64,000 bases of DNA from Escherichia phage ECOP18: the sequence record NC_105825.1. One strand, 5' to 3'. The position numbers and the translations under genes were made by a program. Numbering within the stretch: position 1 is the stretch's first letter; the number at the start of each line of letters is the position of its first letter. The notes under the pieces were generated by a model, which was given only the letters and a program-made list of their open reading frames with translations, ran no database searches and was not told the DNA's origin. Positions 11,305 through 39,273 of the stretch are shown here, in pieces.

Positions 11305-11373
11305 ATTTATCTTGTTCTGTCATGTTGCTTCTCCAGTTCAATTTATGTAATTATTATACAGAACTTTTGGAAA

Positions 11374-11661
11374 CTAAGCAACTACATTTTTTAAAAATTT
11401 GATGCCTTTCTTTTTCTTCTTATATTTCCACGTTAAGGGATTCTGTCGATTATGAACGCTTGAGATCTTTGTCTCGTCAAAGTTCTTCAATATCATGTAA
11501 TCACAGGATAATTGTTCTAATGGAATGTGATCACCGTCAAAAGCGTATACATAAGGCTGTTGACTAGCACGATAATGATAGACTTTGTTAATTCTACGTT
11601 TCAGCAACTTATCCGCGCAGTAAATAAAGAAGTTTTCAGGATGCATCAGCAGCTCCCTCAA
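11374..11661 (-). CDS. hypothetical protein
   Basis: 95-aa ORF. Confidence 0.45.
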   Translation of the reverse strand: MRELLMHPENFFIYCADKLLKRRINKVYHYRASQQPYVYAFDGDHIPLEQLSCDYMILKNFDETKISSVHNRQNPLTWKYKKKKKGIKFLKNVVA

Positions 11662-11663
11662 TT

Positions 11664-11737
11664 TGGTGCACCCTGTTCGTATCGAACGAACCTCTCAAGC
11701 TCTTCAGGCAAGCGCTAATCCATCTCAGCTAAAGGTG
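11664..11737 (-). tRNA. tRNA, anticodon unresolved (possibly Phe GAA)
   Basis: CCA, acceptor pairing and T-arm present; anticodon stem imperfect. Confidence 0.4.
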
Positions 11738-11744
11738 CAAATTT

Positions 11745-11821
11745 TGGCAAACCTACTAGGACTTGAACCTAGACCGTACGGTTTTGGAGACCGACATGCT
11801 GTCCAGTAACACTCTAGGAAT
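11745..11821 (-). tRNA. tRNA-like gene, anticodon unresolved
   Basis: CCA and perfect T-arm (CTAGG/CCTAG); acceptor has two mismatches. Confidence 0.3.
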
Positions 11822-11828
11822 GCAGGAT

Positions 11829-11905
11829 TGGCGTCCTGTGCGGGGATCGAACCCACAAATCCTACCTTGAAAGGGTAGTGACTTTACCAGTTTGTCTAAC
11901 AGGAC
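11829..11905 (-). tRNA. tRNA-Glu (TTC)
   Basis: Perfect acceptor and anticodon stems; loop CTTTCAA. Confidence 0.75.
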
Positions 11906-11911
11906 TTAAAT

Positions 11912-12003
11912 TTGGTGTTGGATGATGGAGTCGAACCACCCGAGACCCTTCCGAGTCGGCAGATTTACAGTCTGCTTCGCTACCTCTACGATACTAATCC
12001 AAC
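11912..12003 (-). tRNA. tRNA-Tyr (GTA)
   Basis: Type II, 92 nt; perfect anticodon stem GCAGA/TCTGC, loop CTGTAAA. Confidence 0.75.
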
Positions 12004-12131
12004 ATATTTAAAAGTATTCAAATACTAGTTTAAACACTTTTAGATATGTTTCCAAATTAGATAACTATTATATCAAGTTTTATGGCACTGAGCAAGTCAA
12101 ATTTTAAAGAACTTGCTCAGTGCTGTATTAG

Positions 12132-12407
12132 TTAGTCGAACTTAGGAGCGACAGTTAAGGAGAATGGAAGTTCGAAAACTTCTTCGCCCTCATCACTAAC
12201 AGTAATTACACGACCTTTAAGTTCAGACATTGAAATATCAATATCAGCTTTTGCATCTGGAGCCATGCCAGCTTCAATACATTTAGCTTTAACTTCCGGC
12301 AGAAGTTCTACATCGTAGAAATAAAGCCATTCAATCTCACCTTCCCAGCCTTCCCAGGATTTACAGATTGCACTTTCAATACCAGTTGCTATAACACGAT
12401 TTTGCAT
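12132..12407 (-). CDS. hypothetical protein
   Basis: 91-aa ORF; long hairpin downstream. Confidence 0.5.
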   Translation of the reverse strand: MQNRVIATGIESAICKSWEGWEGEIEWLYFYDVELLPEVKAKCIEAGMAPDAKADIDISMSELKGRVITVSDEGEEVFELPFSLTVAPKFD

Positions 12408-12497
12408 TCGTTAACTCCTTCATCAATTTATATAACTATTATACCAGAAATTTAAAGCAAAAGGCAAGTACATTTTTAAAAATTCTGTTTGGAGGAG

Positions 12498-12704
12498 CTA
12501 AACTCCAGATTCTTCAGCTAAGTCTAGGCTAATAAGAGATATAGCCATAATTGCTGCTCCGTGTTCTCTTTCTCCTGTCTCTTTAGCTAGGGTTATAATA
12601 TCAAGAAATTGCTTATGAAAGTCTGCAACCTCTTGAGTCATACCTGCCTCAGCAATCATGCCTTTAAGCATGAAACGTTGTGCGGTAATTTCGGGATTAG
12701 CCAT
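12498..12704 (-). CDS. hypothetical protein
   Basis: 68-aa ORF. Confidence 0.45.
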   Translation of the reverse strand: MANPEITAQRFMLKGMIAEAGMTQEVADFHKQFLDIITLAKETGEREHGAAIMAISLISLDLAEESGV

Positions 12705-12864
12705 GTTGTTTCTCCAGTTTCATGTTTAATAGTCTACAAATAAAATCAATGTCTTCATCTGTGCCTAGATCTCTATCTTCAAGAGTTGCCTTGAAGTTTT
12801 TCGTCAATTCCATGAGGATAACTTCTATAGAACGACGTGTTGGCGGAGGTGGATGTCTATACAT
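12697..12864 (-). CDS. hypothetical small protein (55 aa)
   Basis: Hand-translated ORF with AAGGAAA RBS; stop overlaps start of next gene. Confidence 0.35.
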   Translation of the reverse strand: MYRHPPPPTRRSIEVILMELTKNFKATLEDRDLGTDEDIDFICRLLNMKLEKQHG

Positions 12865-12879
12865 CTTATTTCCTTAAGT

Positions 12880-12956
12880 TGGTAGGGGTGGTGGGATTCG
12901 AACCCACAAAACCTGAATTTTAAGTCCAGTACCTATGCCAATTCGATTACACCCCC
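12880..12956 (-). tRNA. tRNA, anticodon reads TAA (Leu-decoding) with short variable arm
   Basis: Perfect T-arm; anticodon loop CTTAAAA. Confidence 0.55.
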
Positions 12957-13057
12957 ATGTAATCAGTTTATTAGTTGATACATATTATAGCCTAGTGAAA
13001 ATCCTACTACTAGTCCCACAAACCAACCAATATAATAATCTTTTAGTTTCACAGGTA

Positions 13058-13243
13058 TTATCCTCGTTCAATATCTAGGGAAACACCGCAGTTAGGATTA
13101 ATACCTGTACCGTTGCAATTTGAACAAATCCAGATATTGCAAAAAGTATCTCCTGCTTCTGCATCAGAACTTTCACCAATTCCCCTACACTCAGGGCAGG
13201 CACATTCTTCTAGCTCTTGCTTGAGTTCTTGAAACTTGGACAT
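13058..13243 (-). CDS. DnaJ-type zinc-finger mini-protein
   Basis: Two CxxCxGxG repeats (CPECRGIG, CSNCNGTG). Confidence 0.5.
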   Translation of the reverse strand: MSKFQELKQELEECACPECRGIGESSDAEAGDTFCNIWICSNCNGTGINPNCGVSLDIERG

Positions 13244-13252
13244 ATAGTCTCC

Positions 13253-13441
13253 TTAGTCAATTACTTTTGAGGCTTCAAGGGAGTCGATATAGTATACGTT
13301 TTCTACCATAATCATATAATCTGCCACTTTATCCATAGCTTGGGCCTCAGAGGTAGCTCTGGCTAACCTATATCCTTTTTTATATTCATCCGGGTATTCT
13401 CTATCTTGAATAAATACAACATAAACTATGTATAATTCCAC
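13253..13441 (-). CDS. hypothetical protein
   Basis: Track ORF 13253-13588 runs through two tRNA genes; trimmed to in-frame GTG with AGGGGA RBS. Confidence 0.35.
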   Translation of the reverse strand: MELYIVYVVFIQDREYPDEYKKGYRLARATSEAQAMDKVADYMIMVENVYYIDSLEASKVID

Positions 13442-13461
13442 TTGTAATCCCCTAATTAAGT

Positions 13462-13539
13462 TGGTGGCTCCCCGAGGATTCGAACCTACGTACCTTCCGG
13501 TTATGAGCCGGGTGCTCATACCATATGAGCTTGAGAACC
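13462..13539 (-). tRNA. tRNA-Met/Ile2 (CAT)
   Basis: Anticodon arm CCGG/CCGG with loop CTCATAA. Confidence 0.55.
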
Positions 13540-13545
13540 AGAATT

Positions 13546-13634
13546 TGGCGGAAGAAGTGGGAATCGAACCCACAAGGCTATATTTCAAACCGACAGATTA
13601 GCAATCTGCTGCAATACCGTTATGCTATTCTTCC
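13546..13634 (-). tRNA. tRNA-Ser (GCT)
   Basis: Type II, 89 nt; perfect acceptor and T stems; loop TTGCTAA. Confidence 0.75.
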
Positions 13635-13655
13635 GAATTTATAAGATATATTATA

Positions 13656-14174
13656 TTAGAAATTTAGCTTCATAGCAAGAAAATTTTTCAAGTTTTCGGT
13701 AGACATCTCATCCACATCTACGGGAGAAACAAAGCCGTTTAATTTTCTAGCAAATTTTTCACCCGCAGGATCGTTGTCTCCGACAGCTACCAATTTAAAA
13801 GGTAATAATTTCAGTTGCTTTAATAACGCTTTTCCTGGAGAAGAACCTAACATTGCCAGGGCTGGATAACCAGCGTTATGTAGCGCAACTGCCTTAAATA
13901 CAGATTCAGCGATCAATACTACTTTTTCATCTCCATTGAGAGTTTCTAGTCCCCATACACACTGGGTAGTAGAATAAGTAAAATATTTAGCTTCAAAGGG
14001 ACACTTACTATGACCTTTTGGAGCAGAAGGATTATACGTCTGATAGCCTCGCAACATCCCGGAGAAGTCATACAACGGGACTGTTAGCCATCCTTCCGGA
14101 CTTAACCAGCAATGATATTTATCTGTATCAAATCCTCTGGATAAGAGGTGCTGTGTTAGCTCATCAACATTCAT
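13656..14174 (-). CDS. Toprim-domain protein
   Basis: Conserved Glu (VVLIAES) and DxD (VAVGDNDPAG); start set to MNVDELT downstream of the promoter. Confidence 0.5.
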   Translation of the reverse strand: MNVDELTQHLLSRGFDTDKYHCWLSPEGWLTVPLYDFSGMLRGYQTYNPSAPKGHSKCPFEAKYFTYSTTQCVWGLETLNGDEKVVLIAESVFKAVALHNAGYPALAMLGSSPGKALLKQLKLLPFKLVAVGDNDPAGEKFARKLNGFVSPVDVDEMSTENLKNFLAMKLNF

Positions 14175-14349
14175 ATTTGGTTCCTCTCTCAAATTTATAG
14201 ATATATTATACAGAGAATTTAGCATTCAAGCAATCAAATTTTTTAACTTTTTAGAGGAAAATCATAGGGCACTTAAGGGTAGCAGATAAGTGGGGAGGAC
14301 CAAAATTTGTGACCCCACTAAAAATCCGGGGGCAATTTTTAAAGACCCC

Positions 14350-14378
14350 TTGACATTTTCGCTGGGGTAGTGTAAAGT
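14350..14378 (+). promoter_or_regulatory. sigma70-like promoter for rightward cassette
   Basis: Consensus -35 TTGACA, 17-nt spacer, TG then TAAAGT. Confidence 0.5.
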
Positions 14379-14440
14379 ATATGTTATGGATGAGTGATCA
14401 AAGAGACACACATTTTCTATATACTAGGAGGTGTCAAAAT

Positions 14441-15430
14441 ATGACAGAAGAAGTAGCTAAGAGTCCTGAGACCGTCGCTAGCGTTGCAGCAGAACTGCAC
14501 CGTCACGAGGAATCAGATAAGAAAAAGTGGGAGAAGGTCAGAGTCTACGAAGAAAAACATCGTGAACACGATGATGAAGAAGAAGATGACGATGATGAAC
14601 ATTGTCATAAATATGGAAAACATAAAATGCAAGAACCAGTAAACGTATTCACTAGTGGCTTCCCTGGCCTACTGGGTGGTTACCCAGCAAACGCAGGTGC
14701 TTTCGGTGGTGAAGGTATGGGACTATTCGGAGCTATCCTAATCGGTGCTCTATTAACCGGCGGATTCGGTGGTTTCGGTGGATTCGGTGGACGTGGTGTA
14801 GTTGGTGAAGGTACCGCAGTTGATGCAGTACTTCAGAACCAAGATACCGCTAGTATTCTAGCAGCTATCAACACTACTCGTACAGAGGCTAACCAGGGTA
14901 CTGGAGCTGTTTTAAGCGCAGTTAACAATGGTTTTAGCCAGACAACCCAAAACCAGAGCCGTGATACTCAGTCTGTACTAACTACGATCTACGGTACAGG
15001 TGCTAATCTGTCTAATCAGATCTGCCAGGAAACTCGCAACGTTATTCAGGGTCAGTTCGATCTTTCTCGCCAGATTGATCAATCTTTCGCAGCTAACCAG
15101 ATAGCTCGTGCACAAGATAAGTTTGATTCTGCACAGATCGCTTTCCAGCAGACTTTACAAACTAATAACCAGTTTGCCGCTGTTCAGGCTCAGATGTGTG
15201 CTAACCAGAACTCTCTGGAACGTCAGATCGCTGAATGTTGCTGTGAACTTCAGACTGCGATCGCTGGTGTAACTACTGCGCGTATCCAGGATGAGTTAGA
15301 CGCATGTCGCCTACGTGAAGCAATCGCTGCGGGTAGCGGTGCTAACGGTCAGGTAATTAATCAAATCGCTTTAAGTCTTGGTGCTATCACTCAGACTCTG
15401 GCTGGTCTGCAGGCTAAACTGCCGGCTTAA
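14441..15430 (+). CDS. low-complexity protein (acidic/His-rich N-terminus, Gly-rich hydrophobic segment, Q/N/A/T-rich C-terminal region)
   Basis: AGGAGGTG RBS before ATG at 14441; GGFGGFGGFGG segment; host-like codon usage; own promoter. Confidence 0.6.
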   Translation: MTEEVAKSPETVASVAAELHRHEESDKKKWEKVRVYEEKHREHDDEEEDDDDEHCHKYGKHKMQEPVNVFTSGFPGLLGGYPANAGAFGGEGMGLFGAILIGALLTGGFGGFGGFGGRGVVGEGTAVDAVLQNQDTASILAAINTTRTEANQGTGAVLSAVNNGFSQTTQNQSRDTQSVLTTIYGTGANLSNQICQETRNVIQGQFDLSRQIDQSFAANQIARAQDKFDSAQIAFQQTLQTNNQFAAVQAQMCANQNSLERQIAECCCELQTAIAGVTTARIQDELDACRLREAIAAGSGANGQVINQIALSLGAITQTLAGLQAKLPA

Positions 15431-15451
15431 TATTAAGGGGAGGAGCCCCTT

Positions 15452-15868
15452 ATGAGTAAATATGGTTTTGTAAATAACGGACTTAATCAAAGTATGGGCT
15501 CCCAGCAGCCCATTCCGGGTCTGGATAACCCCTACTTACAACAGTTGCAACAGCGTTTAGCAGAAGCGCAACAGATGCAGCAACAACTCCAGCAAAACCC
15601 TGGAAGTGTGAGTCCTATGCAAATGATGCAGCAAATGAGCGGGCAGTCGCAAATGCCTCAACAAATGCAGCAACAGGTGCCTCAGCAGCAAGTTCAGCAA
15701 CAAACCCAACAACCGCAGGTTTCTGCGGAAGGACAGGCAGTACTAGCCCTTTTCGAAGACTTCGCAAAGACAGAGGATGGGAAACAGCTTGTATCACTTA
15801 TGGGTAAGTTTAATAGCTTCTGCCAAAGCCAAGTTGCAAAAGCTCAAAATGGGGGTAGTAACTCCTAA
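15452..15868 (+). CDS. Gln/Met-rich low-complexity protein
   Basis: GGGGAGG RBS; runs of QQ/MQQ. Confidence 0.55.
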   Translation: MSKYGFVNNGLNQSMGSQQPIPGLDNPYLQQLQQRLAEAQQMQQQLQQNPGSVSPMQMMQQMSGQSQMPQQMQQQVPQQQVQQQTQQPQVSAEGQAVLALFEDFAKTEDGKQLVSLMGKFNSFCQSQVAKAQNGGSNS

Positions 15869-15877
15869 GGAGGAAAT

Positions 15878-16072
15878 ATGTGTTGCAGAAAATCTGTTTC
15901 GTGCTGCCCAGTGCCTGTAGCACGTTGTTGCTCTCCAGCAATGTTTACGCAAATACCGGCGTTCAATCCCTTTGCCTTTAAACCTACTCTTATCCTGCCC
16001 CCTAGAGTAGATTTTCAGTCAAGATTGGCCTCCCGTATGGGTGGTTGCTGTACACCGAGAGTATGGTTCTAA
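15878..16072 (+). CDS. Cys-doublet small protein
   Basis: AAGGAGG RBS; CC doublets; followed by terminator. Confidence 0.5.
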   Translation: MCCRKSVSCCPVPVARCCSPAMFTQIPAFNPFAFKPTLILPPRVDFQSRLASRMGGCCTPRVWF

Positions 16073-16082
16073 ACCAAAAACA

Positions 16083-16118
16083 AAAGCCCCTGCCGAAAGG
16101 TAAGGGGCTTTTTCTTTT
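16083..16118 (+). terminator. rho-independent terminator ending rightward cassette
   Basis: Hairpin AGCCCC/GGGGCT then TTTTTCTTTTG. Confidence 0.65.
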
Positions 16119-16124
16119 GCCTTA

Positions 16125-16165
16125 AATACAGAAAAGCCCGCGCTCTCGTAGGAAACGCGGGCTTG
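16125..16165 (-). terminator. rho-independent terminator after SPFH gene
   Basis: Hairpin AGCCCGCG/CGCGGGCT then T-run on minus strand. Confidence 0.6.
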
Positions 16166-16187
16166 GTTCGAAGATTACGTGTAACTA

Positions 16188-17135
16188 TTACTTGTTACGC
16201 ATATCCATGATCATTTGACCATCGTAGCCAGTACCTACCACAGTCTGAGGTACACCACCTTGATACTTCTGAGCACGGATCATTTCAACTTCCAGTTGTT
16301 TCCAACGAATCATTTCAGGAGTAATGGTACGTTGCAATGCGGCGTTAGCTTCAGCTTCTTTCTTAGCTGCGTACAGTTTAGCATCTGCGTCACGTTCATT
16401 AGCAATAGCTTGGTTGTTACGAGCTTCACGATCTGCTTCTGCTTGTTTAACTTTTTGCTGTGCTTCCTGTTCAACGCGAGCAAGTTCAGCTTTCGCAGCA
16501 TTAACTTGCTCTTCACGAACTTTGGTATTCTGTACCTGTTCCATGATTACTGGCGGCAAGGTAATATCCTGAAGGAATACCTGCTTAACTGTGTAACCAT
16601 ATGGGCGCGCATACTCTTCAACTTCCTGTTGAATTGCAGTTTGCAATTGAGCCTGAATTTTAGCATCAAATAAATCTTGTGCTTTAGGTACAGACTTACC
16701 AAACTCACGAATAGTAGACAGTAATTTTTCAGTTACATACTTGTCTAGTGCCTGATCCTGAGTACCTGCGTTAATACGGTTAATCGGTGCTTTAGAACCA
16801 TCAAACTGCAACATAACAGTCAGGTCAACAGTGGATTTAAACTTATCCTGGCTAGGAACCTGAAGTTTATCTAATTTTACAGCAATATCTTTTGTACTAA
16901 AAGTATCGAAAGATGCAAACGGGTTTACAAGATGGAAGCCCGGCAATACTGGATTAGGGTCTACTTTACCCAGGAATGTTTGGGTTTTAACCGTACCATC
17001 AGAAACAATAGTATATGAATTAAAAGCTAGGATTAAACCTGCTAAACCAACTACAGCACCAATACCCCAACGTTTAATAGTACGAATTACTTTCTGCTCA
17101 GAAGTCAGTTCTTTCATATTTTTAGTAGCAAACAT
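16188..17135 (-). CDS. SPFH/band-7 (stomatin/prohibitin/HflC-like) membrane protein
   Basis: N-terminal TM, SPFH-like core, Ala/Gln/Glu-rich coiled-coil C-terminus. Confidence 0.55.
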   Translation of the reverse strand: MFATKNMKELTSEQKVIRTIKRWGIGAVVGLAGLILAFNSYTIVSDGTVKTQTFLGKVDPNPVLPGFHLVNPFASFDTFSTKDIAVKLDKLQVPSQDKFKSTVDLTVMLQFDGSKAPINRINAGTQDQALDKYVTEKLLSTIREFGKSVPKAQDLFDAKIQAQLQTAIQQEVEEYARPYGYTVKQVFLQDITLPPVIMEQVQNTKVREEQVNAAKAELARVEQEAQQKVKQAEADREARNNQAIANERDADAKLYAAKKEAEANAALQRTITPEMIRWKQLEVEMIRAQKYQGGVPQTVVGTGYDGQMIMDMRNK

Positions 17136-17169
17136 ATATTTCCTTTGTTTTAGTTACAGTTAATAAAAT

Positions 17170-17244
17170 TGGCCGAGGTGACAGGATTCGAACCTGCATA
17201 AAGGAATTTAGAAGACTCCTGCCTCTCCCTTAGACTACACCCCG
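17170..17244 (-). tRNA. tRNA-Arg (TCT)
   Basis: Anticodon loop CTTCTAA. Confidence 0.65.
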
Positions 17245-29281: not shown

Positions 29282-30043
29282 TTACACCTTCCCCATGTCT
29301 TTAAAAATATCGTAGAATGCTTTAGACTCAGCAGAACGAACGTTATCAATCAATTCGATCATTGAGAATGGGGCATTTTCGTATTTCTCATAGACTTCCA
29401 TAAGTAGTGCTAGACCTGAGTCACATTTAATGTCTTTCTGAGCTATATCTCCGCAGATAATTAAACGGCAGTCTTGTCCTACACGAGTTAGGAGACAAAT
29501 CATTGCCTCAACGGAAATATTCTGAGCTTCATCGACAATTACATAGGAGTTGTTGAAAGTTCTGCCACGAGCATGTTCTACAGCCAAAAATTTAATTTTC
29601 TGACGTTCGACATATCCCTTATAGGCATGATCACCGATGGCCCATTTCATACCATCAGCTATTGGCTCTAACCAAGGCTCTAGCTTTTCCGCTAGATCAC
29701 CAGGAAGCATACCAAGAGACTTACCTAGAGGTTCATTAGGACGTACGAGGATCACTTGCTCAATATCTGAGTGAATGTCTACGAGTTCCTGAGCTGCAAG
29801 AACAGACGGGATAAAGGTTTTACCAGTACCTGGCTCACCGATACCCACAGTCACTGTGTTGTTCTTGATCATATTGATATATGATTTTTGCTCGCGGTTT
29901 TTACCTACTAGGGATTTAGCAACTGGGTTAGCGTAATCATTAGAAAAATCAGCCTGAATTACGTTATTCTCATATTTGTTGCCACGCTTTCTTGAACCAT
30001 TGCGGTTCTCTCTTTTTTGACGTGCTTTTCCCATAAATAACAC
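29282..30043 (-). CDS. phoH: PhoH-like ATPase
   Basis: Walker A GEPGTGKTF and PhoH-like layout. Confidence 0.7.
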   Translation of the reverse strand: MLFMGKARQKRENRNGSRKRGNKYENNVIQADFSNDYANPVAKSLVGKNREQKSYINMIKNNTVTVGIGEPGTGKTFIPSVLAAQELVDIHSDIEQVILVRPNEPLGKSLGMLPGDLAEKLEPWLEPIADGMKWAIGDHAYKGYVERQKIKFLAVEHARGRTFNNSYVIVDEAQNISVEAMICLLTRVGQDCRLIICGDIAQKDIKCDSGLALLMEVYEKYENAPFSMIELIDNVRSAESKAFYDIFKDMGKV

Positions 30044-30327
30044 TCCTATAGTGTACTTCGCTAACAGAGGATCAACAAAAAGATCTTGTTTATCAACTTA
30101 CAAATATATTATACCAATATATACAGTAAAAAGCAACTACAATTTTAAATAAGCCTATGATATTGCATTTAAATAAAAAATTTGCTTGCTTTTAACGTGA
30201 GATGTGTGATACTAGATAATCATTTTATATCGCGTGCACGAGTGCGTGATTATACAATTTTTAATAGAGATTGGCAAATAAAATTTTTTGACTCAGATCA
30301 TGTTACAGAACTTTATAGTAAAATATT

Positions 30328-30357
30328 GTTGACATCCGCCCTCGAATGAGTTATAAT
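30328..30357 (+). promoter_or_regulatory. sigma70 promoter for nrdD
   Basis: TTGACA-N18-TATAAT, 30 nt upstream of nrdD. Confidence 0.65.
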
Positions 30358-30386
30358 AGTAGTCTTAGTTAGAGAAGGAGAGTATA

Positions 30387-32261
30387 ATGAATCGCAATGA
30401 AGAACTAAAGTATAAAGAAATGCAGGCGTTAATTAGAAACTGCAAAGAGATTATCGAAGGGTCAGCAGATGAAGAGCTGCTGTTTAATAATGCCAATAAA
30501 CCCTCAGAACGTTTCCCTACACAAAGGGATATGCTTGCAGGTGAATTGAGTAAGTATCTGATTCTAGAAGAAATGCCCATTCAGATTCGAAATGCTCATA
30601 TGATTGGAGATATTCATTTCCATGATGCTGACTATGCTGCATTAGGTATGACTAACTGTTGTCTGGTAGCTCTGGAAGATATGTTGAAGAATGGTATGAA
30701 GGTTGGTAATGCTGAAATTAGCACTCCAAACTCTATCACTACTGCGGCAGCTATTACAGCTCAGATTATCACTCAGGTTAGCTCCCATCAGTATGGTGGT
30801 ACTTCTGTAGATCGCCTTGATGAAGTATTAGCCCCTTATGTTCGTAAATCCTATGACAAAAATCATGCGTTTGCAAAACGTTGGACTAAGGATGAAGCCA
30901 AAGCATCCGTAATGGCTACGGAGATGACTGAAAAAGAAGTCTATGATGCTTGTCAGGGTCTAGAGTATGAAATCAATACGATGTTCAACTCTAATGGTCA
31001 GAGTCCATTTATTACCTTTGGTTTTGGTCTAGGGACTTCTTGGGAAGCACGTCTAGTACAGAAAGCAATACTGAAAGTACGTATGGATGGCTTAGGCATC
31101 AATAAACGTACAGCTATCTTTCCGAAACTGGTGTTTGTTCTGCGTGATGGCGTAAATATGAAGCCAGGAGATGTTAATTATGACGTCAAGAAGTTAGCTA
31201 TGAAATGTACTGCTGAACGTATGTATCCAGATTATATCAGCTATGATAAGGTTGTAGAAGTTACTGGGGACTATAAAGTTTCTATGGGCTGCCGTTCATT
31301 CCTAGCTGCTACAGAAGATGGTGAAACTGCCGGTCGTAATAACTTAGGTGTTGTTTCTGTAAACTTGCCTAGAATTGCTATCGAAGCTGAAGGAAATATT
31401 GACCTATTCTTTGATTTGCTTGAGCTACGTGTAGATACAGCATTAAAAGCGTTGGAGTGGAGAGTTGATCGCTTAAAATACATTCAAGCTAAAGCTGCAC
31501 CCATCCTCTATATGTCAGGAGCCTTTGGGTTACGTTTGGGGCCTGATGAATATGTATTCGATCATTTCTATAACCGTGCTTCTGTATCTCTAGGGTATAT
31601 TGGTTGCCATGAAATGCTACAGTTCATGTTTGGCAAAGATGTAGACACAATGTCCGAGACCTGCATCAAGTTTGTTCAGCGTGTATTGCAGTACATGCGG
31701 GATAGAGTCGATCAGAAGAAGGAAGAAACTAAGTTAGGTTATAGCCTGTATGCTACACCATCAGAATCCCTATGTGACCGTTTTTGTCGTCTAGACCGTG
31801 AATACTTCCCGGAGCATGAAGATATTCTGTCCAAAGGATACTACACTAACTCTCACCACCTTGATGTAGAACGTAAAGTTGCTCCCAATGTGAAATTTGA
31901 TTATGAATCTAACTTTACGCCGATTGCTTCTGGTGGATGTATTTCCTATGTAGAACTACCGGATATGAAACGATTCCCAGATGCACTGGAATGGGTTATT
32001 AATTATGCTGCTAGTAAGGTTCATTACTTCGGTATTAATACTCCAGTGGATTCTTGTGGTAAATGTGGATTCTTAGGTGAAACAATAGCATCCGAAGATG
32101 GGTTTAAGTGCCCTATCTGTGGTAATCATGACCCTGAAACTCTTGAAGTAACTCGTCGAGTTTGTGGGTATCTTGGAAATCCGGGTGCTCGTCCATTTAA
32201 CCCCGGCAAACAGCACGAGGTTATGGGCAGAGTGAAACATCAGGATATTCGAGCTAAATAA
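30387..32261 (+). CDS. nrdD: anaerobic ribonucleotide reductase (class III)
   Basis: C-terminal glycyl-radical motif RRVCGYLG and CGKCG zinc site; TTGACA/TATAAT promoter. Confidence 0.85.
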   Translation: MNRNEELKYKEMQALIRNCKEIIEGSADEELLFNNANKPSERFPTQRDMLAGELSKYLILEEMPIQIRNAHMIGDIHFHDADYAALGMTNCCLVALEDMLKNGMKVGNAEISTPNSITTAAAITAQIITQVSSHQYGGTSVDRLDEVLAPYVRKSYDKNHAFAKRWTKDEAKASVMATEMTEKEVYDACQGLEYEINTMFNSNGQSPFITFGFGLGTSWEARLVQKAILKVRMDGLGINKRTAIFPKLVFVLRDGVNMKPGDVNYDVKKLAMKCTAERMYPDYISYDKVVEVTGDYKVSMGCRSFLAATEDGETAGRNNLGVVSVNLPRIAIEAEGNIDLFFDLLELRVDTALKALEWRVDRLKYIQAKAAPILYMSGAFGLRLGPDEYVFDHFYNRASVSLGYIGCHEMLQFMFGKDVDTMSETCIKFVQRVLQYMRDRVDQKKEETKLGYSLYATPSESLCDRFCRLDREYFPEHEDILSKGYYTNSHHLDVERKVAPNVKFDYESNFTPIASGGCISYVELPDMKRFPDALEWVINYAASKVHYFGINTPVDSCGKCGFLGETIASEDGFKCPICGNHDPETLEVTRRVCGYLGNPGARPFNPGKQHEVMGRVKHQDIRAK

Positions 32262-34964: not shown

Positions 34965-35357
34965 ATGGAACAAGTATATTGGCGTCAGATTGATCCTAGT
35001 TTGGTGAAGCGTGCGGAGAAGCTGCTACAACGTTGGTTGGGGGTAAGACAAGCCTCCTTCACTTTTCCGGAGCAGCAAATAGACGATCCCTGTATTGGTG
35101 TTTTCCTATCAGGCTACGCTAGGGAATGGGAATTGGATTGGAATGAGTTGTCTGCTATGGGTTTAATTGTTGCCCTAAATTTCTCTTTGTTACACCCACG
35201 TGGTTTGGCTATATGTCGTGTGCCCGATGATGGTTGTTCGCCCCATCTTTTACAGGTGGAAGATGATATTTTGGAGTACACTCCAGATATTCTCAAAGAA
35301 GCTAAAGAACAATTAAACCGTGTTGGGATCTATGTTCCAGGCCTGAATGATGAATGA
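34965..35357 (+). CDS. hypothetical protein (paralog B)
   Basis: Tandem paralog of 34530-34955. Confidence 0.5.
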   Translation: MEQVYWRQIDPSLVKRAEKLLQRWLGVRQASFTFPEQQIDDPCIGVFLSGYAREWELDWNELSAMGLIVALNFSLLHPRGLAICRVPDDGCSPHLLQVEDDILEYTPDILKEAKEQLNRVGIYVPGLNDE

Positions 35358-35496
35358 TTTTTATTAGCTGAACTTTGTAATCCGGGCTATTAGTGCTCGG
35401 ATTATTACATAATCTTTTCAGTCGATTGACAGTCAAAATAAATTGTCGTTGACAATTTGGATGGATTATGTAATAATATATGTATTGGAGGTGAGG

Positions 35497-35949
35497 ATGT
35501 CATTCACACAGCAAGAACTTTTAGATAACTTCCGATATGAAGATGGTAAGTTATTTAGAACTACAGGAAGAAATGCAGGGAAAGAATGTTGTGTTTCTAC
35601 GGGTAACGGATATTACCGTATATCTCTAGGGAATAGGACTATGCTTCGGCATAGAGCAATATTTTTAATGCACCATGGATACTTACCTGATTTAGTAGAT
35701 CATGTGAACACTATAAAAGGTGATGATCGTATTGAAAATCTTAGAGAGCAGACGGTATCCGGTAATCTAAGAAATATCAAATACAAGAAAGGAATGCATG
35801 TTTACCCTTCTGGTAGTAAGAACTGGCAAGTAGTATTTACTATTAACCGTAAACGGATAGTTAAAGGAACATATGACAACTATGAGGTTGCATGTTCTAT
35901 GGCCAAGATGTTTAGAGGTCAATTATACGGTAGGGAATCAATCCAGTAA
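35497..35949 (+). CDS. HNH homing endonuclease
   Basis: HNH motifs (RHRAIFLMHHGYLP, VDHVNTIKGDDRIENL); start at MSFTQQ with GGAGGTGAGG RBS. Confidence 0.7.
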   Translation: MSFTQQELLDNFRYEDGKLFRTTGRNAGKECCVSTGNGYYRISLGNRTMLRHRAIFLMHHGYLPDLVDHVNTIKGDDRIENLREQTVSGNLRNIKYKKGMHVYPSGSKNWQVVFTINRKRIVKGTYDNYEVACSMAKMFRGQLYGRESIQ

Positions 35950-36483
35950 AATTTCATTTGCAAGGGAGTATTATTTTATAGTATAATATTCCCATAAATG
36001 AGAGACATTAGTAAAAATTGATTTTGCTAATTTTTCTTGTTTACAATCCGCGATACGGAACAGTTAGGCTGCCCCATTAAGGGTTGTTTTAACTGTTACG
36101 TGTTAGTTTTTAAACAAATAATTAATAGAATACTTAGCGATCTACATCCCGTAGGAACCCTGGTAAGGCCTCGAAGCAACCTAGTGTGAGGTGGTTGTGA
36201 AGTGAGACGGGAAGAGTGAAAAACTCTGAGAAGTGATGACGTAAGGTATACTGCATCTAGTATGAGCTAGTACATGAAGCATTAGGTGAGCAAATCTGGC
36301 TTAGCGGCCATCCTCAAGGATTTGTGCGGTATAGTGAAGCGGCAGTGTAGCGTGAAAGGGGAAGTTGCCACCCCCCTTCAGTATTTGCGATTAATTGTTG
36401 AGAAATTGACAGTAACAGTTGTTCTATTCTTTCTGAATAGTCCTAAAGAAAACTTATTTCATATCCAACACAGGAGTATTGTT

Positions 36484-39273
36484 GTGTTCTCAATCCTACA
36501 AGGTCATGCAGGATTTCATCGTGATTTAGCCACAGGCAATTGGCGAGAAGTTAAAGCAGAAGACTATCTTTTTGCTAAAAGATTTTCCTCAAAGCATCCT
36601 GAAGGTAAACCAGCTTCAATGCCCTTCAAGTTTGATGTAATTGATGAAGTTGATCCTCAAACCCTAGTAGAAATGCTTCCTCTTATGAGACGTTTAACGT
36701 CTGACCCTCATATCGTTGCGGTACGAGGTCGATGTCTTGCACCTAAAAATAATGTGCGACGTAAGAAGGGCAACTTTAATGTATCTAACCCAAGTCATAT
36801 AATCGCAATGGATGTGGATGGTATTGTAGATACAGGTGGTTGTAACAAGTTTGATCTTGTTGGCATGGCTCGACATATTATTAGAATGTTAAATAGTATT
36901 AGTGAGGATATGTTCCCTCTTGATGCAGGGTTTATCGCTCATGCATCGTCTTCGGCTGGGCTAAAACCAGGTATCCGAATGCACTTAATACTAGAATCTA
37001 ATGTTAAAGTAACTCAGGGTCAAATCAAATTCTTATTTACATCTATCAACGAAAGTAGTAGACAAAAGTATGGCTTTGATATTGCCGACTTAGCTTATTA
37101 CTCTTCCGTACAGCTTCATTATTTTGCAGATCCGTTATTTATCGATGGTATAGTAGATCCGTTTAAAGCGGAGGGTGCTTCACGTCTGGTATTTGTTAAG
37201 GGTTCTAAAGTAAATTTACCCAATAATCTGGTTGACTATGAAACAACTAGAGGAGAGTTTAAAGAGGAGTTCTACTCCTTACTCGATCAAATTAAAGGTA
37301 AAAAGGCTGCCTCTGATAAAGTAGAAGAAACCATCAGCGAGTTAGAAGAAGCCGAGGATGGAGTGTATCTACGTATTATTCCTAAACTCTATCACAGAGC
37401 TTTAGAGGATGGTGTTGATTTTGCATGGCTAGAAAAAGAAATCCGCCCAGCCTTATCAGAATATATTGCAACTAAAGATAATAGTCGTAATATTCAAGAC
37501 TACTTTAATAACGGTCGTAAACAGGCTCTGAAAGCGTTTGTTAATAATTCTAAACGCGATATACCTGATGTTTTAAAAGGTATTCCACTTAAAAAGCTAG
37601 AAACTAATTCTCTAGAAACTGATAACTTCTTGAAATTAAACACTGTACCACCAGAAGGTTATATGACTTTTGTAAAAGCAAGTCTAGGTACAGGTAAAAC
37701 TACGGCGGTTGTGCGTTGGTTGGATTCAGGAGTTATTAAAGGTAATTTCTTAGCAATTACCAATACTCGAGCACTGGTATCTTCAAATGCTAAGAAATTT
37801 AGTGCAGGACAATATGATAAGTCTGTAGATATGCTTAATTTTAAGCGTGGTGCTATTGACCGTATGTCCACAACTATTCACTCTTTGCATAAATTCAAGA
37901 GTTTTATTGGTCAAATTGACGCAATCTTTATCGATGAATGTGATGCAGTAATGAATGACCTATTATTCGCCCCGGTTGTTAAGCAACGTCGCGAGTGTAT
38001 TCAGGTTCTTAGGGATATTCTTGCAACTGCAAAAATCATTATATTATCCGATGGTGATATTAGTGCGGAAACAATTGAAGCATATGGTTCTTTGATTGAG
38101 TTCGATAAACCAGTTGCATTCTATAATCATCACCGTAAGATGCTGTCAAAAGCTCATGCTTATGAGTTCCCTGATGAATCCAGTATTTGGGTTGCACTTC
38201 AGACTTCTCTAGAGATGGGTGAGAAATCTATTCTAGTATCTGATTGTGGTCCTGATGAGCTGAATGAGAAGGGTATGGCACTACGTCGTAATACTGGTGC
38301 GTTAGTTAAGGAAATCCATTCAAACTCCACCTCAGATGTGGATATTCGACGTATTCTGGATTATACAACTAATGAGCTAATTGATCAACAAATTGATTGC
38401 TTATTATGTAGTCCATCCGTAACGAGTGGCGTTGACTTCAACTATTTCGATAATGTATTTGTTATTACTAGAACCAGTAATCAAGCGCCAAACATGCGTT
38501 TTCAAGCAATCAGGCGCGACCGTGGTGCTCAGAACATCTATTATTTTATTGATAAATCCACAAGTGGATTCTCCGCAGGTTCTGAACAATATAACATTGA
38601 TGAGGGTTGGCTGGAGTTAGCACAGCAATTATACGCACGTCGTAGGGAGCTGGAATCTAGGAACTATACTAGTACTTTACGTTATTACTTGCTTGATCAG
38701 GGTGCAACTATTGATATTTTCAGCGAAAGCTGGGGAACTATTGAAGGTGCTGGTAAAGAGTACACAGAAGAGCGAATCAAAGCTATTCTGCACTCAACTC
38801 CTGATTATTGTGCTCCACGTCATGCGGATGCGTATGAGGCTAAACTACTTCTTGTTCGCTATTATCATCTTGGGTCTATTAAAGATGTAACAGTTGAGCA
38901 TGTTGAACAATATATCAAAGATAAACCGAATGATCGAGCTGCATTCTTCCATAAGATGCACGAGATGTTCTGGGAAGATATTAAGAAGTGTTCAAATGTT
39001 ACTATCAAACCATTCATAGAAGCTCTGAAAGGTAAGAAGAAAGATTTCTTCCTTAAAACAGGTCAGAGTGCTAACCCAAAATATGCTAGAATGTATCTTG
39101 GTATGATGGGTATTGGTAAGGATATGAACACTGAAAATATTGTAGACTGGTACAGAACCTATTGTAAAATCGAGTGTATGCCAATTCCTTATAAGTTCAT
39201 GACTGACGAGGAAAAACATATGCATGATGAAGCAATGTCAGAGCTAGGTGCTAGAAATGACAGTGAAGAATAA
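36484..39273 (+). CDS. large P-loop ATPase / putative helicase
   Basis: Walker A LGTGKTT and Walker B FIDECDAV; start placed at in-frame GTG with AGGAG RBS (uncertain). Confidence 0.55.
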   Translation: MFSILQGHAGFHRDLATGNWREVKAEDYLFAKRFSSKHPEGKPASMPFKFDVIDEVDPQTLVEMLPLMRRLTSDPHIVAVRGRCLAPKNNVRRKKGNFNVSNPSHIIAMDVDGIVDTGGCNKFDLVGMARHIIRMLNSISEDMFPLDAGFIAHASSSAGLKPGIRMHLILESNVKVTQGQIKFLFTSINESSRQKYGFDIADLAYYSSVQLHYFADPLFIDGIVDPFKAEGASRLVFVKGSKVNLPNNLVDYETTRGEFKEEFYSLLDQIKGKKAASDKVEETISELEEAEDGVYLRIIPKLYHRALEDGVDFAWLEKEIRPALSEYIATKDNSRNIQDYFNNGRKQALKAFVNNSKRDIPDVLKGIPLKKLETNSLETDNFLKLNTVPPEGYMTFVKASLGTGKTTAVVRWLDSGVIKGNFLAITNTRALVSSNAKKFSAGQYDKSVDMLNFKRGAIDRMSTTIHSLHKFKSFIGQIDAIFIDECDAVMNDLLFAPVVKQRRECIQVLRDILATAKIIILSDGDISAETIEAYGSLIEFDKPVAFYNHHRKMLSKAHAYEFPDESSIWVALQTSLEMGEKSILVSDCGPDELNEKGMALRRNTGALVKEIHSNSTSDVDIRRILDYTTNELIDQQIDCLLCSPSVTSGVDFNYFDNVFVITRTSNQAPNMRFQAIRRDRGAQNIYYFIDKSTSGFSAGSEQYNIDEGWLELAQQLYARRRELESRNYTSTLRYYLLDQGATIDIFSESWGTIEGAGKEYTEERIKAILHSTPDYCAPRHADAYEAKLLLVRYYHLGSIKDVTVEHVEQYIKDKPNDRAAFFHKMHEMFWEDIKKCSNVTIKPFIEALKGKKKDFFLKTGQSANPKYARMYLGMMGIGKDMNTENIVDWYRTYCKIECMPIPYKFMTDEEKHMHDEAMSELGARNDSEE

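What the first reader, a model, noticed from the sequence alone, without database searches (positions are those of the whole stretch)
35950..36483. Long structured leader with repeated GAAGTGA motifs between an HNH endonuclease and the large helicase
About 530 nt without a convincing ORF carries promoter-like elements and a purine-rich stretch with GAAGTGA-type repeats (about 36195-36235). The helicase start is ambiguous (track GTG at 36286 versus my in-frame GTG at 36484). It could be a regulatory leader, protein-binding site array or replication-related element.
Basis: inference. Interest (0 to 1): 0.5.

Follow-up and report, generated by a model that had tools for sequence, protein, structure and literature searches.

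The report
Large structured RNA before T5 helicase
The apparently empty 530 bases upstream of the T5-type D2 helicase gene encode an untranslated leader whose ~330-nt core folds into a many-helix RNA; T5-like phages preserve it through compensatory mutations and it matches no catalogued RNA family, so it is probably a new functional RNA whose role is still unknown.

Summary
The window is a T5-like phage (Tequintavirus). Region 35950-36483 is non-coding. The helicase, a homologue of T5 D2, starts at GTG 36484. The upstream in-frame extension from 36286 carries stops in the closest relatives. A T5 early-type promoter (35958-35987) drives a ~490-nt leader. The leader has a 5' hairpin, a conserved hairpin H0, and a 317-333-nt core closed by a 27-36-bp duplex (P1) that holds at least nine further helices. 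A 60-nt module then carries the ribosome-binding site. Every main helix covaries across 11 divergent phages: each 5' arm pairs better with its own 3' arm than with another phage's (0-1 of 5000 permutations for six of seven helices). Two covariance models gave 93-96% paired cells and 35 of 49 pairs changed on both sides. The fold is specific to the sense strand. Rfam 15, ARAGORN, plasmids, bacterial genomes and the literature I could search hold no equivalent. The two GAAGTGA copies are junction strands of this fold, not a binding-site array. Function is inferred only. A cis-acting leader of the D2 early transcript is most likely; an excised trans-acting RNA or a replication primer are rivals.

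The parts
35497..35949 (+). HNH homing endonuclease gene. It is an optional insert upstream of the leader and not part of the RNA element.
   Evidence: Pfam HNH_3, E = 2e-11, and PHROG 99. Annotated in MM-1, Shivani and AKFV33. Absent in T5, EPS7, SelmaRatti, TrudiGerster, phiR201 and DU_PP_V, which still have the leader.
35958..35987 (+). T5 early-type sigma-70 promoter: TTGCAA, 18-nt spacer, TATAAT, followed by ATT. The predicted transcription start is about 35994.
   Evidence: Promoter scan, 10 of 12 matches. A promoter is annotated at the homologous site in T5 AY543070 and in AKFV33. T5 early promoters carry ATATT in the discriminator region (PMC7472727). The promoter is conserved in all aligned relatives.
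35995..36042 (+). AU-rich 5'-terminal hairpin of the transcript (arms AUUAGUAAAA / UUUUGCUAAU plus an outer stem).
   Evidence: Present in the minimum-energy fold and in the constrained fold. DU_PP_V has UUAGACAA / UUGUCUAA at the same place, read.
36043..36087 (+). Hairpin H0: stem ACAAUCC / GGGUUGU around the almost invariant GAUACGGAACAGUNNGGCUGCCCCAU, with an inner hairpin CAGU-UAG-GCUG at 36061-36071.
   Evidence: Own-versus-foreign arm test, 0 of 5000 permutations. KpGranit has CCGAGCAU / AUGCUUGG and L101 has GUAUA / UAUAC. The inner hairpin is CGGU / GCCG in L101.
36089..36124 (+). P1, 5' arm of the long duplex that closes the core (core pairing AACUGUUAC, 36091-36099).
   Evidence: Pairs with 36388-36422. 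Own-arm mean energy is -30.3 kcal/mol against -15.2 for foreign arms, 0 of 5000 permutations. The exact inverted repeat is I7. T5 has AACUAUUAC / GUAAUAGUU and DU_PP_V has AUUAUUAUACAG / CUGUAUAAUAAU.
36137..36146 (+). P2, 5' arm (GCG, an AU bulge, CUACA) within the conserved AGYGAUCU block.
   Evidence: Pairs with 36346-36353. Nine distinct variants are 7-9 of 9 paired, and the top three pairs each show 3-4 Watson-Crick pair types. Own-versus-foreign arm test, 0 of 5000.
36147..36227 (+). P3 three-way junction (P3 UCCCGU / ACGGGA, P3a, P3b GCAACC / GGUUGU) and hairpin P4 (AGAGU / ACUCU). The first GAAGTGA copy (36199-36205) is the strand joining P3b to P3.
   Evidence: Covariance model R2 and alignment A7: 93.2% of cells paired, 14 of 23 pairs changed on both sides, 0 of 500 shuffles, 33-51% paired when partners are slid.
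36228..36246 (+). Conserved purine-rich junction GAGAAGUGAUGACGUAAGG. It contains the second GAAGTGA copy (36230-36236).
   Evidence: GAGAAGUG is kept in L101, DU_PP_V, L069 and phiR201, and AAGAAGUG in KpGranit. T5-type leaders have GAAAAGAG instead.
36247..36333 (+). P6 (UAUAC / GUAUA) enclosing the variable hairpin P5 and helix Px (CAAAUCU 36291-97 / GGAUUUG 36318-24). Px is capped by Px' (GGCU-UAGC-GGCC, 36298-36309), which carries the invariant CUUAGCGG.
   Evidence: Covariance model R1 and alignment A4: all 7 Px pairs and all 5 P6 pairs changed on both sides, 98-100% paired. Own-versus-foreign arm test: Px 0 of 5000, P6 1 of 5000.
36346..36353 (+). P2, 3' arm (UGUAG-CGU).
   Evidence: See the P2 5' arm.
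36354..36379 (+). Hairpin Pt (GAA-GGGG / CCCC-UUC) with the conserved loop AAGUUGCCA.
   Evidence: Within type 1, GGGG / CCCC becomes GUGG / CCAC. T5 has AUAUGA / UCAUAU and EPS7 has GUAUGA / UCAUAC. In A4, 6 of 7 pairs changed on both sides. The own-versus-foreign arm test is weaker here, 222 of 5000.
36388..36422 (+). P1, 3' arm (core pairing GUAACAGUU, 36412-36420).
   Evidence: See the P1 5' arm.
36424..36483 (+). 3' module: hairpin CUAUUC / GAAUAG (36424-36440), conserved UCCUAAAGAAAA, a spacer, and the Shine-Dalgarno sequence AGGAG (36472-36476) in a small hairpin AACACAG / UUGUGUU whose 3' arm holds the start codon.
   Evidence: Invariant in Markadamsvirinae. The hairpin covaries: KpGranit CUAUC / GAUAG, DU_PP_V CUUUCC / GGAAAG, L101 AUACUAU / AUAGUAU, L074 CUGUU / AACAG.
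36484..39273 (+). Helicase gene, a homologue of T5 D2 (the 'replication origin binding protein', a bipolar SF2 helicase). The true start is GTG 36484.
   Evidence: Pfam Herpes_ori_bp at residues 394-533, which corresponds to the PF02399 region (residues 392-532) reported for T5 D2 in PMC3632103. tblastn found it in 908 phage records.

Best explanation
Region 35950-36483 is the promoter and ~490-nt untranslated leader of the early transcript that begins with the D2 helicase gene.

Shown: the leader is a highly ordered RNA. It has a 5' hairpin and a sequence-invariant hairpin H0. Its core is a 317-333-nt domain closed by a 27-36-bp duplex, P1. Inside P1 a long-range helix, P2, encloses a three-way junction (P3, P3a, P3b), hairpin P4, and P6 with P5, Px and Px'. 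Hairpin Pt lies between the P2 3' arm and the P1 3' arm. A fixed ~60-nt module then presents the ribosome-binding site and a weak start codon in a small hairpin. The fold is specific to the sense strand and is kept by compensatory changes across enterobacterial Demerecviridae.

Inferred: the RNA acts in cis on the transcript that carries it. Plausible modes are setting stability, translation or read-through of the D2 operon, most plausibly by binding a phage or host protein at its invariant loops (GAUACGGAACAG..GGCUGCCCC, CUUAGCGG, GUUGCCA). The two GAAGTGA copies are single-stranded junction segments of this fold.
For: Position. A gap of 500-860 nt lies directly upstream of the D2 homologue, on the same strand, in nearly every Demerecviridae lineage examined (metagenomic lineage L098 is the exception), whether or not the HNH gene is present. 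All 444 blastn hits to the region are single-copy (one place per record), and where a feature under the match is annotated it is usually the D2-type replication origin binding protein.

Transcription. A T5 early-type promoter lies immediately upstream. No intrinsic terminator lies between it and D2.

Structure. Each 5' arm pairs better with its own 3' arm than with another phage's: 0 of 5000 permutations for H0, P1, P2 and Px, 1 of 5000 for P3 and P6, and 222 of 5000 for Pt. In model-based alignments 95.7% and 93.2% of cells are paired, 21 of 26 and 14 of 23 pairs changed on both sides, 0 of 500 shuffles reach the observed values, and slid controls give 29-51%. P2 has nine variants with 3-4 pair types per position. 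The comparative model costs only 3.3 kcal/mol more than the minimum-energy fold.

Strand. 17% of pairs are G-U. The + strand gives better duplexes in six of seven helices, and whole-domain folds are 18-26 kcal/mol better on the + strand.

Coupling to D2. The distance from the P1 3' end to the start codon is about 55-65 nt and always includes a hairpin, in Markadamsvirinae, L101, DU_PP_V, L069 and KpGranit. The initiation region is partly base-paired in all of them.

Not coding.
Against: The function is not demonstrated; I had no expression, processing or binding data. P1 is far too long and stable to act as a riboswitch-type switching helix, and the core is larger than any known riboswitch aptamer.

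Proteus phage VTCCBPA139 has a 12-of-12 consensus promoter 36 nt before the helicase start. DU_PP_V has a 10-of-12 promoter inside the P1 3' arm. In those lineages D2 can probably be expressed without the RNA.

A metagenomic lineage with 51% D2 identity (L098) seems to lack the element.

The core behaves as an exchangeable cassette: window versus T5 is 59% identical in the core, 92-96% in the flanks and 86% in D2. That fits an autonomous RNA as well as it fits a leader.
Confidence: 0.45

Rival explanations
1. The P1-closed core (about 36089-36422) is an independent non-coding RNA. It is made as part of the leader and then cut out by a double-strand-specific nuclease (RNase III type) acting on the 27-36-bp P1 duplex. 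It then acts in trans as a protein-binding scaffold, decoy or ribozyme. The cut would also leave a processed D2 mRNA that begins at the 36424 hairpin.
For: P1 is a long, nearly continuous duplex in every lineage (-22 to -38 kcal/mol) even though its sequence differs. This resembles the flank-formed processing stems of rRNA precursors and the phage T7 RNase III sites (established knowledge). Core length is fixed at 317-333 nt, and the core is exchanged as a unit between close relatives. The apical loops are invariant. Consensus promoters lie between the core and D2 in Proteus phage and DU_PP_V. The size and number of helices are in the range of ribozymes and RNP RNAs rather than mRNA operators.
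Against: The core has no terminator of its own and is never found away from D2. There is only one copy in the 64-kb window. I have no evidence of cleavage or of a stable product. RNase III determinants cannot be scored with these tools.
Confidence: 0.25
2. The leader is a replication pre-primer or origin transcript, in the manner of ColE1 RNA II or the R-loop origins of phage T4. On this reading, transcription from the early promoter yields a folded RNA that hybridises to the template near the conserved 3' module and primes DNA synthesis next to the gene of the presumed initiator helicase D2.
For: It lies directly upstream of D2, for which a role in replication initiation has been proposed (PMC3632103). 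Origins often sit beside initiator genes (established knowledge). The ~490-nt length with a strong promoter is similar to RNA II (from memory). The flanks are more conserved at the sequence level (92-100%) than the adjacent coding DNA (86-89%).
Against: There are no iterons and no AT-rich unwinding block downstream; the D2 coding sequence follows at once. No antisense promoter lies inside 36000-36480. The cumulative GC-skew minimum in the window is at ~30 kb, where gene orientation switches, not at 36 kb, although transcription confounds this measure. Recombitron editing of T5 showed a strand bias that its authors read as dominant unidirectional replication from one genome end (PMC10055335).
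Confidence: 0.1
3. The region is coding. Either the helicase starts at GTG 36286, or the 50-aa ORF at 36037-36189 is a real small gene.
For: Both ORFs are open in the window. MM-1 annotators called small 'hypothetical proteins' here.
Against: The 36286 frame has 4-6 stops in MM-1 (98.8% identical overall) and in eight other near-identical phages, and it is destroyed in all other lineages. Neither ORF has a Pfam match. The sequence under both ORFs is replaced by a 59%-identical, structure-preserving variant in T5. The start position at 36484 is conserved with a Shine-Dalgarno sequence.
Confidence: 0.02
4. The region is a DNA-level element: an array of protein-binding sites (GAAGTGA repeats or iterons) or a cruciform-forming inverted repeat in double-stranded DNA.
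For: There are two GAAGTGA copies 31 nt apart and several inverted repeats. The 26-nt block GATACGGAACAGTNNGGCTGCCCCAT is invariant from T5 to a Pectobacterium phage and could in principle be a DNA site.
Against: Only two-copy repeat families occur and GAAGTGA is not enriched. The first copy is not conserved. The helices use 17% G-U pairs and are clearly better on the + strand, which a duplex-DNA cruciform would not show.
Confidence: 0.03

Closest known systems
Long autoregulatory 5' leaders of bacterial and phage mRNAs (E. coli rne 5' UTR of ~360 nt, the pnp leader, and the phage T4 gene 32, gene 43 and regA operators)
   Same: An untranslated, structured segment lies between the promoter and the first gene of an operon that encodes a nucleic-acid enzyme. 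The initiation region is partly base-paired. A 5' terminal hairpin is present.
   Different: There is no sequence or model similarity (Rfam scans). The core is a closed multi-junction domain of about 10 helices with a 30-bp closing duplex, far more elaborate than known operators. Binding by D2 or any other protein is untested.
ColE1 RNA II pre-primer, and the R-loop origins of phage T4
   Same: A transcript of about 500 nt from a strong promoter, whose folding is conserved, lies next to replication functions.
   Different: There is no antisense RNA I-type promoter, no identified hybrid-forming tract or RNase H site, and no evidence that replication starts here.
Orphan large structured bacterial and phage RNAs (OLE, GOLLD, ROOL, HEARO, raiA)
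   Same: The size class is over 300 nt. It has many covarying helices, invariant loops and unknown biochemistry. Like GOLLD and ROOL it is phage-associated.
   Different: No Rfam model of these families matches at E <= 1. This RNA is always part of the leader of one specific gene and is confined, as far as I could see, to one phage family.
RNase III processing stems (rRNA operon flanking stems, phage T7 early-mRNA sites)
   Same: Sequences several hundred nucleotides apart form a long duplex that brackets a folded RNA.
   Different: Cleavage is not demonstrated. The bracketed RNA is not a known stable RNA.
Riboswitches
   Same: A conserved folded domain in a 5' UTR, closed by a P1 helix and followed by a ribosome-binding site in secondary structure.
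   Different: P1 is 27-36 bp against 4-8 bp in riboswitches. The domain is about 330 nt, against under ~200 nt for single aptamers. There is no terminator or conserved anti-SD switch, and no match to any Rfam riboswitch family.

Membership tests
Any Rfam 15 family (including RNase P, tmRNA, group I/II introns, 6S, riboswitches, HEARO, GOLLD, ROOL, OLE) | A covariance-model match at or near the family's gathering score | tested here: not met
   A permissive scan (E <= 1) of window 35000-37500 gave only a C/D-box snoRNA noise hit (17 bits against a 36-bit gathering score). The same scan of ten divergent loci gave two unrelated noise hits. ARAGORN found no tRNA or tmRNA here.
Riboswitch | A short, switchable P1 helix coupled to an expression platform (an intrinsic terminator, or an SD-sequestering helix that competes with P1) | tested here: not met
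   P1 is 27-36 bp at -22 to -38 kcal/mol. The leader has no terminator. The ribosome-binding site is sequestered differently in each lineage and never by a strand that competes with P1.
Riboswitch | Binding of a small-molecule ligand | not testable with these tools
   This needs in-line probing or ITC.
ColE1 RNA II-type pre-primer | An antisense regulatory RNA promoter within the first ~100 nt | tested here: not met
   Promoter-like sites on the - strand occur only at 35950-35922 and further upstream. None lies in 36000-36480.
ColE1 RNA II-type pre-primer | DNA synthesis starts at the 3' end of the processed transcript | not testable with these tools
   Only indirect data are available: the GC-skew minimum lies elsewhere, and editing-bias data were read as replication from a genome end.
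Iteron or binding-site-array origin | Three or more direct repeats of a 7-22-bp site, usually with an AT-rich unwinding element | tested here: not met
   Only two-copy repeat families were found. GAAGTGA occurs 7 times in 64 kb against 9.5 expected.
RNase III-processed flanking stem | A near-continuous RNA duplex of at least ~20 bp formed by the flanks of the excised RNA | tested here: met
   The P1 duplexes in all 11 lineages are of this kind; for example the window has 31 pairs with three single-nucleotide bulges.
RNase III-processed flanking stem | Cleavage in vivo or in vitro | not testable with these tools
   This needs comparison of rnc+ and rnc- hosts, or an in vitro cleavage assay.
Protein-coding N-terminal extension of the helicase | The reading frame is conserved in relatives | tested here: not met
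   The frame carries stops in 9 of 11 near-identical relatives and in all distant ones.
Conserved structured RNA (general criterion) | Compensatory base changes that maintain the helices, beyond the level seen in controls | tested here: met
   Strand specificity is shown.

The most novel reading that the evidence does not exclude
The P1-closed ~330-nt domain is a previously unrecognised class of large functional RNA in T5-like phages. On this reading it is an autonomous, possibly excised, ribozyme-scale or RNP-forming RNA that works with the D2 helicase, for example in replication initiation or in countering a host defence. Its two ancient sequence types would then be maintained by selection for specificity.
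Probability: 0.25. Interest if true: 0.85.

Novelty: new variant of a known kind. Interest (0 to 1): 0.7.

Why it matters
T5 has been a model phage for 70 years, and D2 is a biochemically characterised helicase. Even so, genome records describe the 470-530 nt in front of its gene only as a promoter plus empty space, or fill it with spurious small ORFs.

RNAs larger than 300 nt with about ten covarying helices and invariant loops are rare. Those whose function is known are ribozymes, RNP scaffolds or elaborate regulators. A new one in an easily manipulated E. coli phage can be tested directly with deletions, compensatory mutants and probing. It could reveal how T5-like phages control or start replication.

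It also has practical value. It corrects the helicase start, removes false 'hypothetical proteins', and supplies a seed for a new RNA family that should improve annotation of several hundred T5-like (Demerecviridae) genomes.

Tried and rejected
- Rfam scans, permissive, on the window and on ten divergent loci found nothing. A weak C/D-box match (UGAUGA...CUGA) is chance, because the box is not conserved.
- RNase P-like idea. GGCUUAGCGG resembles the 3' strand of P4, but no RNase P model hits, and the motif is the apical loop of a local hairpin (Px') whose stem covaries.
- Kissing interaction between the Px' loop (GCUUAGC) and the H0 loop (GUUAGGC). The two are complementary in the window, but the H0 loop varies (UA, UC, AC, CC) without compensation in Px', so I dropped it.
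- Alternative pairing of the H0 loop with the P1 5' arm (inverted repeat I2). It is not kept in T5-type or DU_PP_V leaders.
- Helix 'P2' as first drawn (AUACUU / AAGGUAU). Other lineages do not support it, so I replaced it with the long-range P2 described in the report.
- Structure-aware alignment with mafft-qinsi. The program is not functional on the machine. Plain MAFFT plus RNAalifold misaligns the variable core.
- Wider distribution. Plasmids gave no match. Bacterial species genomes gave no match to the H0 motif. The Px'-to-Pt pattern gave four hits, all in coding DNA of GC-rich MAGs, at about the chance expectation of ~6. The metagenome protein-anchored scan added only two new lineages.
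- Vibrio-phage leaders. They are equally long and structured, and they share several motifs in the same order. Neither covariance model reaches them, so homology is likely but not established.
- Literature searches for a described T5 or Demerecviridae leader RNA or a mapped origin found nothing specific.
- D2 N-terminal 399 aa against PDB sequences gave no informative match.
Full report
**What the window is, and where the gene boundaries lie**

The 1.6 kb around the finding is 94-99% identical to many T5-like phages (Tequintavirus and Epseptimavirus, family Demerecviridae). The gene on the left, 35497-35949, is an HNH homing endonuclease (Pfam HNH_3; PHROG 99). The gene on the right is the homologue of T5 D2, usually annotated 'replication origin binding protein'. 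It carries Pfam Herpes_ori_bp at residues 394-533. T5 D2 has been characterised as a bipolar SF2 helicase with a proposed role in replication initiation (PMC3632103).

The annotated relatives start the helicase at the equivalent of GTG 36484. I translated the 198 nt upstream in the helicase frame in 22 phages. The extension from GTG 36286 is open only in the window and two loci. The nearest relative, MM-1, and eight other near-identical phages carry a 1-nt indel that puts 4-6 stops in the frame, and every other lineage is full of stops. The start position itself is kept as GTG, ATG or TTG with a Shine-Dalgarno sequence before it.

**The observation**

- Two promoter-like sites lie at 35958-35987 and 36018-36047.
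- Two GAAGTGA copies lie at 36199 and 36230, inside a 10-nt direct repeat.
- The stretch is purine-rich.
- The predicted fold is unusually stable (z = -3.2).

GAAGTGA is not over-represented in the window (7 copies against 9.5 expected). There are no repeat families with more than two copies.

**The gap is conserved, with or without the HNH gene**

T5, EPS7, SelmaRatti, TrudiGerster, phiR201 and the Pectobacterium phage DU_PP_V lack the HNH gene, yet all have 470-700 non-coding nt between the preceding gene and D2. The same holds for Klebsiella, Proteus and Vibrio members of the family, where the gap is 600-860 nt and is sometimes filled with doubtful 30-55-aa ORFs. T5's own record annotates only a terminator, a promoter and then D2 470 nt later.

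The promoter has the TATAATATT form. A primer-extension study reported ATATT in the discriminator of all known T5 early promoters (PMC7472727).

**Anatomy**

Alignment of nine, then 27, leaders showed nearly invariant flanks and a central part of about 330 nt that differs greatly in sequence but hardly at all in length. I compared independent folds and anchored segments of 11-13 divergent leaders. That gave the following model, in window coordinates on the + strand.

- Transcription start at about 35994.
- AU-rich 5' hairpin, 35995-36042.
- H0: stem 36043-49 / 36081-87 around the invariant GAUACGGAACAGUNNGGCUGCCCCAU, with an inner hairpin at 36061-71.
- P1: a long closing duplex, 36089-36124 / 36388-36422.
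- P2: a long-range helix, 36137-46 / 36346-53, with a conserved AU bulge.
- P3: 36147-52 / 36207-12, enclosing P3a and P3b (36176-81 / 36193-98).
- P4: 36213-27. It is absent in T5-type leaders.
- A purine-rich junction, 36228-46.
- P6: 36247-51 / 36329-33, enclosing the variable hairpin P5 and Px (36291-97 / 36318-24).
- Px': the cap on Px, 36298-36309, whose loop CUUAGCGG is invariant.
- Pt: 36354-79, with the loop AAGUUGCCA.
- A ~60-nt 3' module: hairpin 36424-40, then UCCUAAAGAAAA, then a small hairpin that holds part of the Shine-Dalgarno sequence and the whole start codon.

Every model pair is canonical in the window. Forcing the model costs only 3.3 kcal/mol relative to the unconstrained minimum-energy fold (-135.0 against -138.3).

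The two GAAGTGA copies are unpaired joining strands. One runs from P3b to P3. The other runs from P4 to P6. Only the second belongs to a conserved motif, GAGAAGUGA.

**Is the structure real?**

I ran three kinds of test.

1. An alignment-free test. For each helix I took fixed windows around conserved anchors in 11 leaders and computed the best duplex between the 5' window of phage i and the 3' window of phage j. A phage's own 3' arm paired much better than another phage's.
   - P1: -30.3 against -15.2 kcal/mol.
   - Px: -9.5 against -5.6.
   - P2: -10.2 against -6.6.
   - Random re-pairings reached the observed total in 0 of 5000 trials for H0, P1, P2 and Px, in 1 of 5000 for P3 and P6, and in 222 of 5000 for the G-rich Pt.
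2. Two covariance models, built only from near-identical type-1 sequences plus my structure, recovered distant leaders.
   - L101, from a metagenome, with D2 about 70% identical: E = 3e-10 and 2e-19.
   - DU_PP_V: E = 4e-5 and 7e-11.
   - L069: E = 4e-3 and 1e-3.
   - KpGranit: E about 0.03 with each model.
   - On the resulting alignments, 95.7% and 93.2% of cells form standard pairs, and 21 of 26 and 14 of 23 pairs show changes on both sides. No shuffle out of 500 reaches any observed measure. Sliding the partners by 1-3 columns drops pairing to 29-51%. These alignments are fitted to the model, which inflates pairing somewhat. The alignment-free test does not have that bias.
3. P2 was tabulated from sequence anchors alone. 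Nine distinct variants are 7-9 of 9 paired: CUACA/UGUAG, CUGCG/CGCAG, CUGUG/CACAG, CUGUA/UACAG, CCAUA/UAUGG, CUAGA/UCUAG and others. The three top pairs each show 3-4 Watson-Crick types.

The structure belongs to the sense strand. G-U pairs make up 17% of duplex pairs. The + strand beats the - strand in six of seven helices. Whole-domain folds are 18-26 kcal/mol better on the + strand. That points to RNA transcribed in the direction of D2, not to a cruciform in duplex DNA.

**Distribution and evolution**

blastn finds the region in 444 phage records, always once per record; where a feature under the match is annotated it is usually the D2-type replication origin binding protein. In 162 of these records at least 80% of the query aligns. 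In most of the rest only the flanks align, 35-47% of the query.

I distinguish two sequence types of the core. Type 1 comprises the window, STG2 and, more distantly, L101 and DU_PP_V. Type 2 comprises T5, AKFV33, EPS7 and, more distantly, phiR201 and KpGranit.

Between the window and T5 the 5' part is 96% identical, the 3' module 92% and the start of D2 86%, but the P1-closed core only 59%. The window's core is no closer to T5's than to that of a Klebsiella or Pectobacterium phage, and it is 67% identical to L101's. Core length stays at 317-333 nt in all lineages. The core therefore behaves as a cassette bounded by the two arms of P1.

Vibrio-phage leaders are as long and as structured, and they share several motifs in the same order. 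My models do not reach them, however, and they seem to lack Px'. One metagenomic lineage, L098, appears to lack the element.

Nothing similar exists in PLSDB plasmids. In the species-representative bacterial genomes I found only chance hits. The window holds a single copy.

**What it is not**

- It matches no Rfam 15 family, even at E <= 1, in any of the lineages scanned. It is not a tRNA or a tmRNA.
- It does not have riboswitch architecture. P1 is 27-36 bp, there is no terminator, and no strand competes with P1 to sequester the ribosome-binding site.
- It has no iterons.

I found no description of it in the literature I could search. That search cannot exclude papers in subscription journals.

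**How it most likely works**

Shown:
- an early promoter;
- no terminator before D2;
- a sense-strand RNA fold conserved by compensation;
- a fixed 3' module that links the fold to a partly base-paired initiation region with a weak start codon.

Inferred: the RNA acts in cis on the D2 early transcript, affecting stability, translation or read-through. It probably does so through a protein bound at the invariant loops. I put this at about 0.45.

Several facts keep an autonomous, RNase III-excised RNA in play at about 0.25. P1 is long. The core has a constant size and is exchanged as a cassette. In addition, Proteus phage has a perfect consensus promoter 36 nt before D2, and DU_PP_V has a good one inside the P1 3' arm.

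A ColE1-RNA-II-like or T4-like origin transcript is attractive because D2 is a presumed initiator. Three points count against it, and I put it at about 0.1.
- It lacks an antisense promoter, an unwinding element and iterons.
- The skew minimum lies at the switch in gene orientation near 30 kb, although that measure is confounded by transcription.
- Strand bias in T5 genome editing was interpreted as replication mainly from one genome end (PMC10055335).

Coding and DNA-array readings are essentially excluded.

**Verdict**

Its structure is well supported. Its function is open and can be tested directly in T5.

Noticed in passing
window 5895-17244, - strand: A cluster of 21 tRNA genes, all on the minus strand, typical of T5-like phages.
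   Followed up: no
window 35443-35990; L002 (Shivani) 2051-2300: The HNH endonuclease is an optional cassette inserted between the terminator of the preceding gene and the leader's promoter. In Shivani the cassette brings its own copy of the promoter plus the first ~50 nt of the leader, so this segment is duplicated. In the window only the cassette-type promoter remains.
   Followed up: partly
L006 (phiR201) about 760-860; also L052, L066, L076: A ~97-nt insertion flanked by TTTTTCTT direct repeats sits inside the 5' terminal hairpin of the leader. This is the point where the HNH-cassette homology ends in Shivani. The insert contains its own hairpin (ATTTACGG / CCGTAAAT). It could be a small mobile insert or an extra RNA domain.
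   Followed up: no
window 36055-36066 and 36090-36101: The invariant H0 loop segment ACGGAACAGUUA is 92% complementary to the P1 5' arm, and the same AACAGUU occurs in the P1 3' arm. An alternative pairing is therefore possible in type-1 leaders. It is weakened in T5-type leaders and absent in DU_PP_V.
   Followed up: partly
window 36028-36038 and 36446-36456: The 3' arm of the 5' terminal hairpin (UAAUUUUUCUU) is complementary to the conserved AAGAAAACUUA of the 3' module near the ribosome-binding site. A similar match seems possible in DU_PP_V. It could be a long-range 5'-3' contact or a switch.
   Followed up: no
window about 30043-30387: Gene orientation switches from the - strand to the + strand here, and the cumulative GC skew of the window has its minimum at this point.
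   Followed up: no
L041 (Proteus phage VTCCBPA139) 700-1500: The leader is ~700 nt long. It has two CUUAGCG-like motifs (GCCTTAGCGGG and GCCTTAGCCG, about 320 nt apart) and 12-of-12 consensus promoters at both ends (705-733 and 1435-1464). The RNA may be duplicated or expanded in this genus.
   Followed up: partly
L045 (Vibrio phage VspSw_1) 640-1360: The leader contains two tandem copies of a module, seen by eye (…GACTATCACYTCGGARG…TTGTCCGTTAATG…CCTCAATCYTCGGATTGTGYGAGTC.GTTAACTTCTGTCG…).
   Followed up: no
window 36484-37680 (D2 residues 1-399): The N-terminal ~390 residues of D2 have no Pfam or PDB-sequence match. The motifs IIAMDVDG and HASSSAGLKPGIRMH look, from memory, like the catalytic motifs of archaeo-eukaryotic primase-polymerases. 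This was not tested.
   Followed up: partly
L001 (MM-1) 2138-2290 and 2387-2503; L043, L044 upstream of D2: Several genome records annotate 30-55-aa 'hypothetical proteins' inside the leader. These are not conserved and are probably artefacts of gene calling over the structured RNA.
   Followed up: partly
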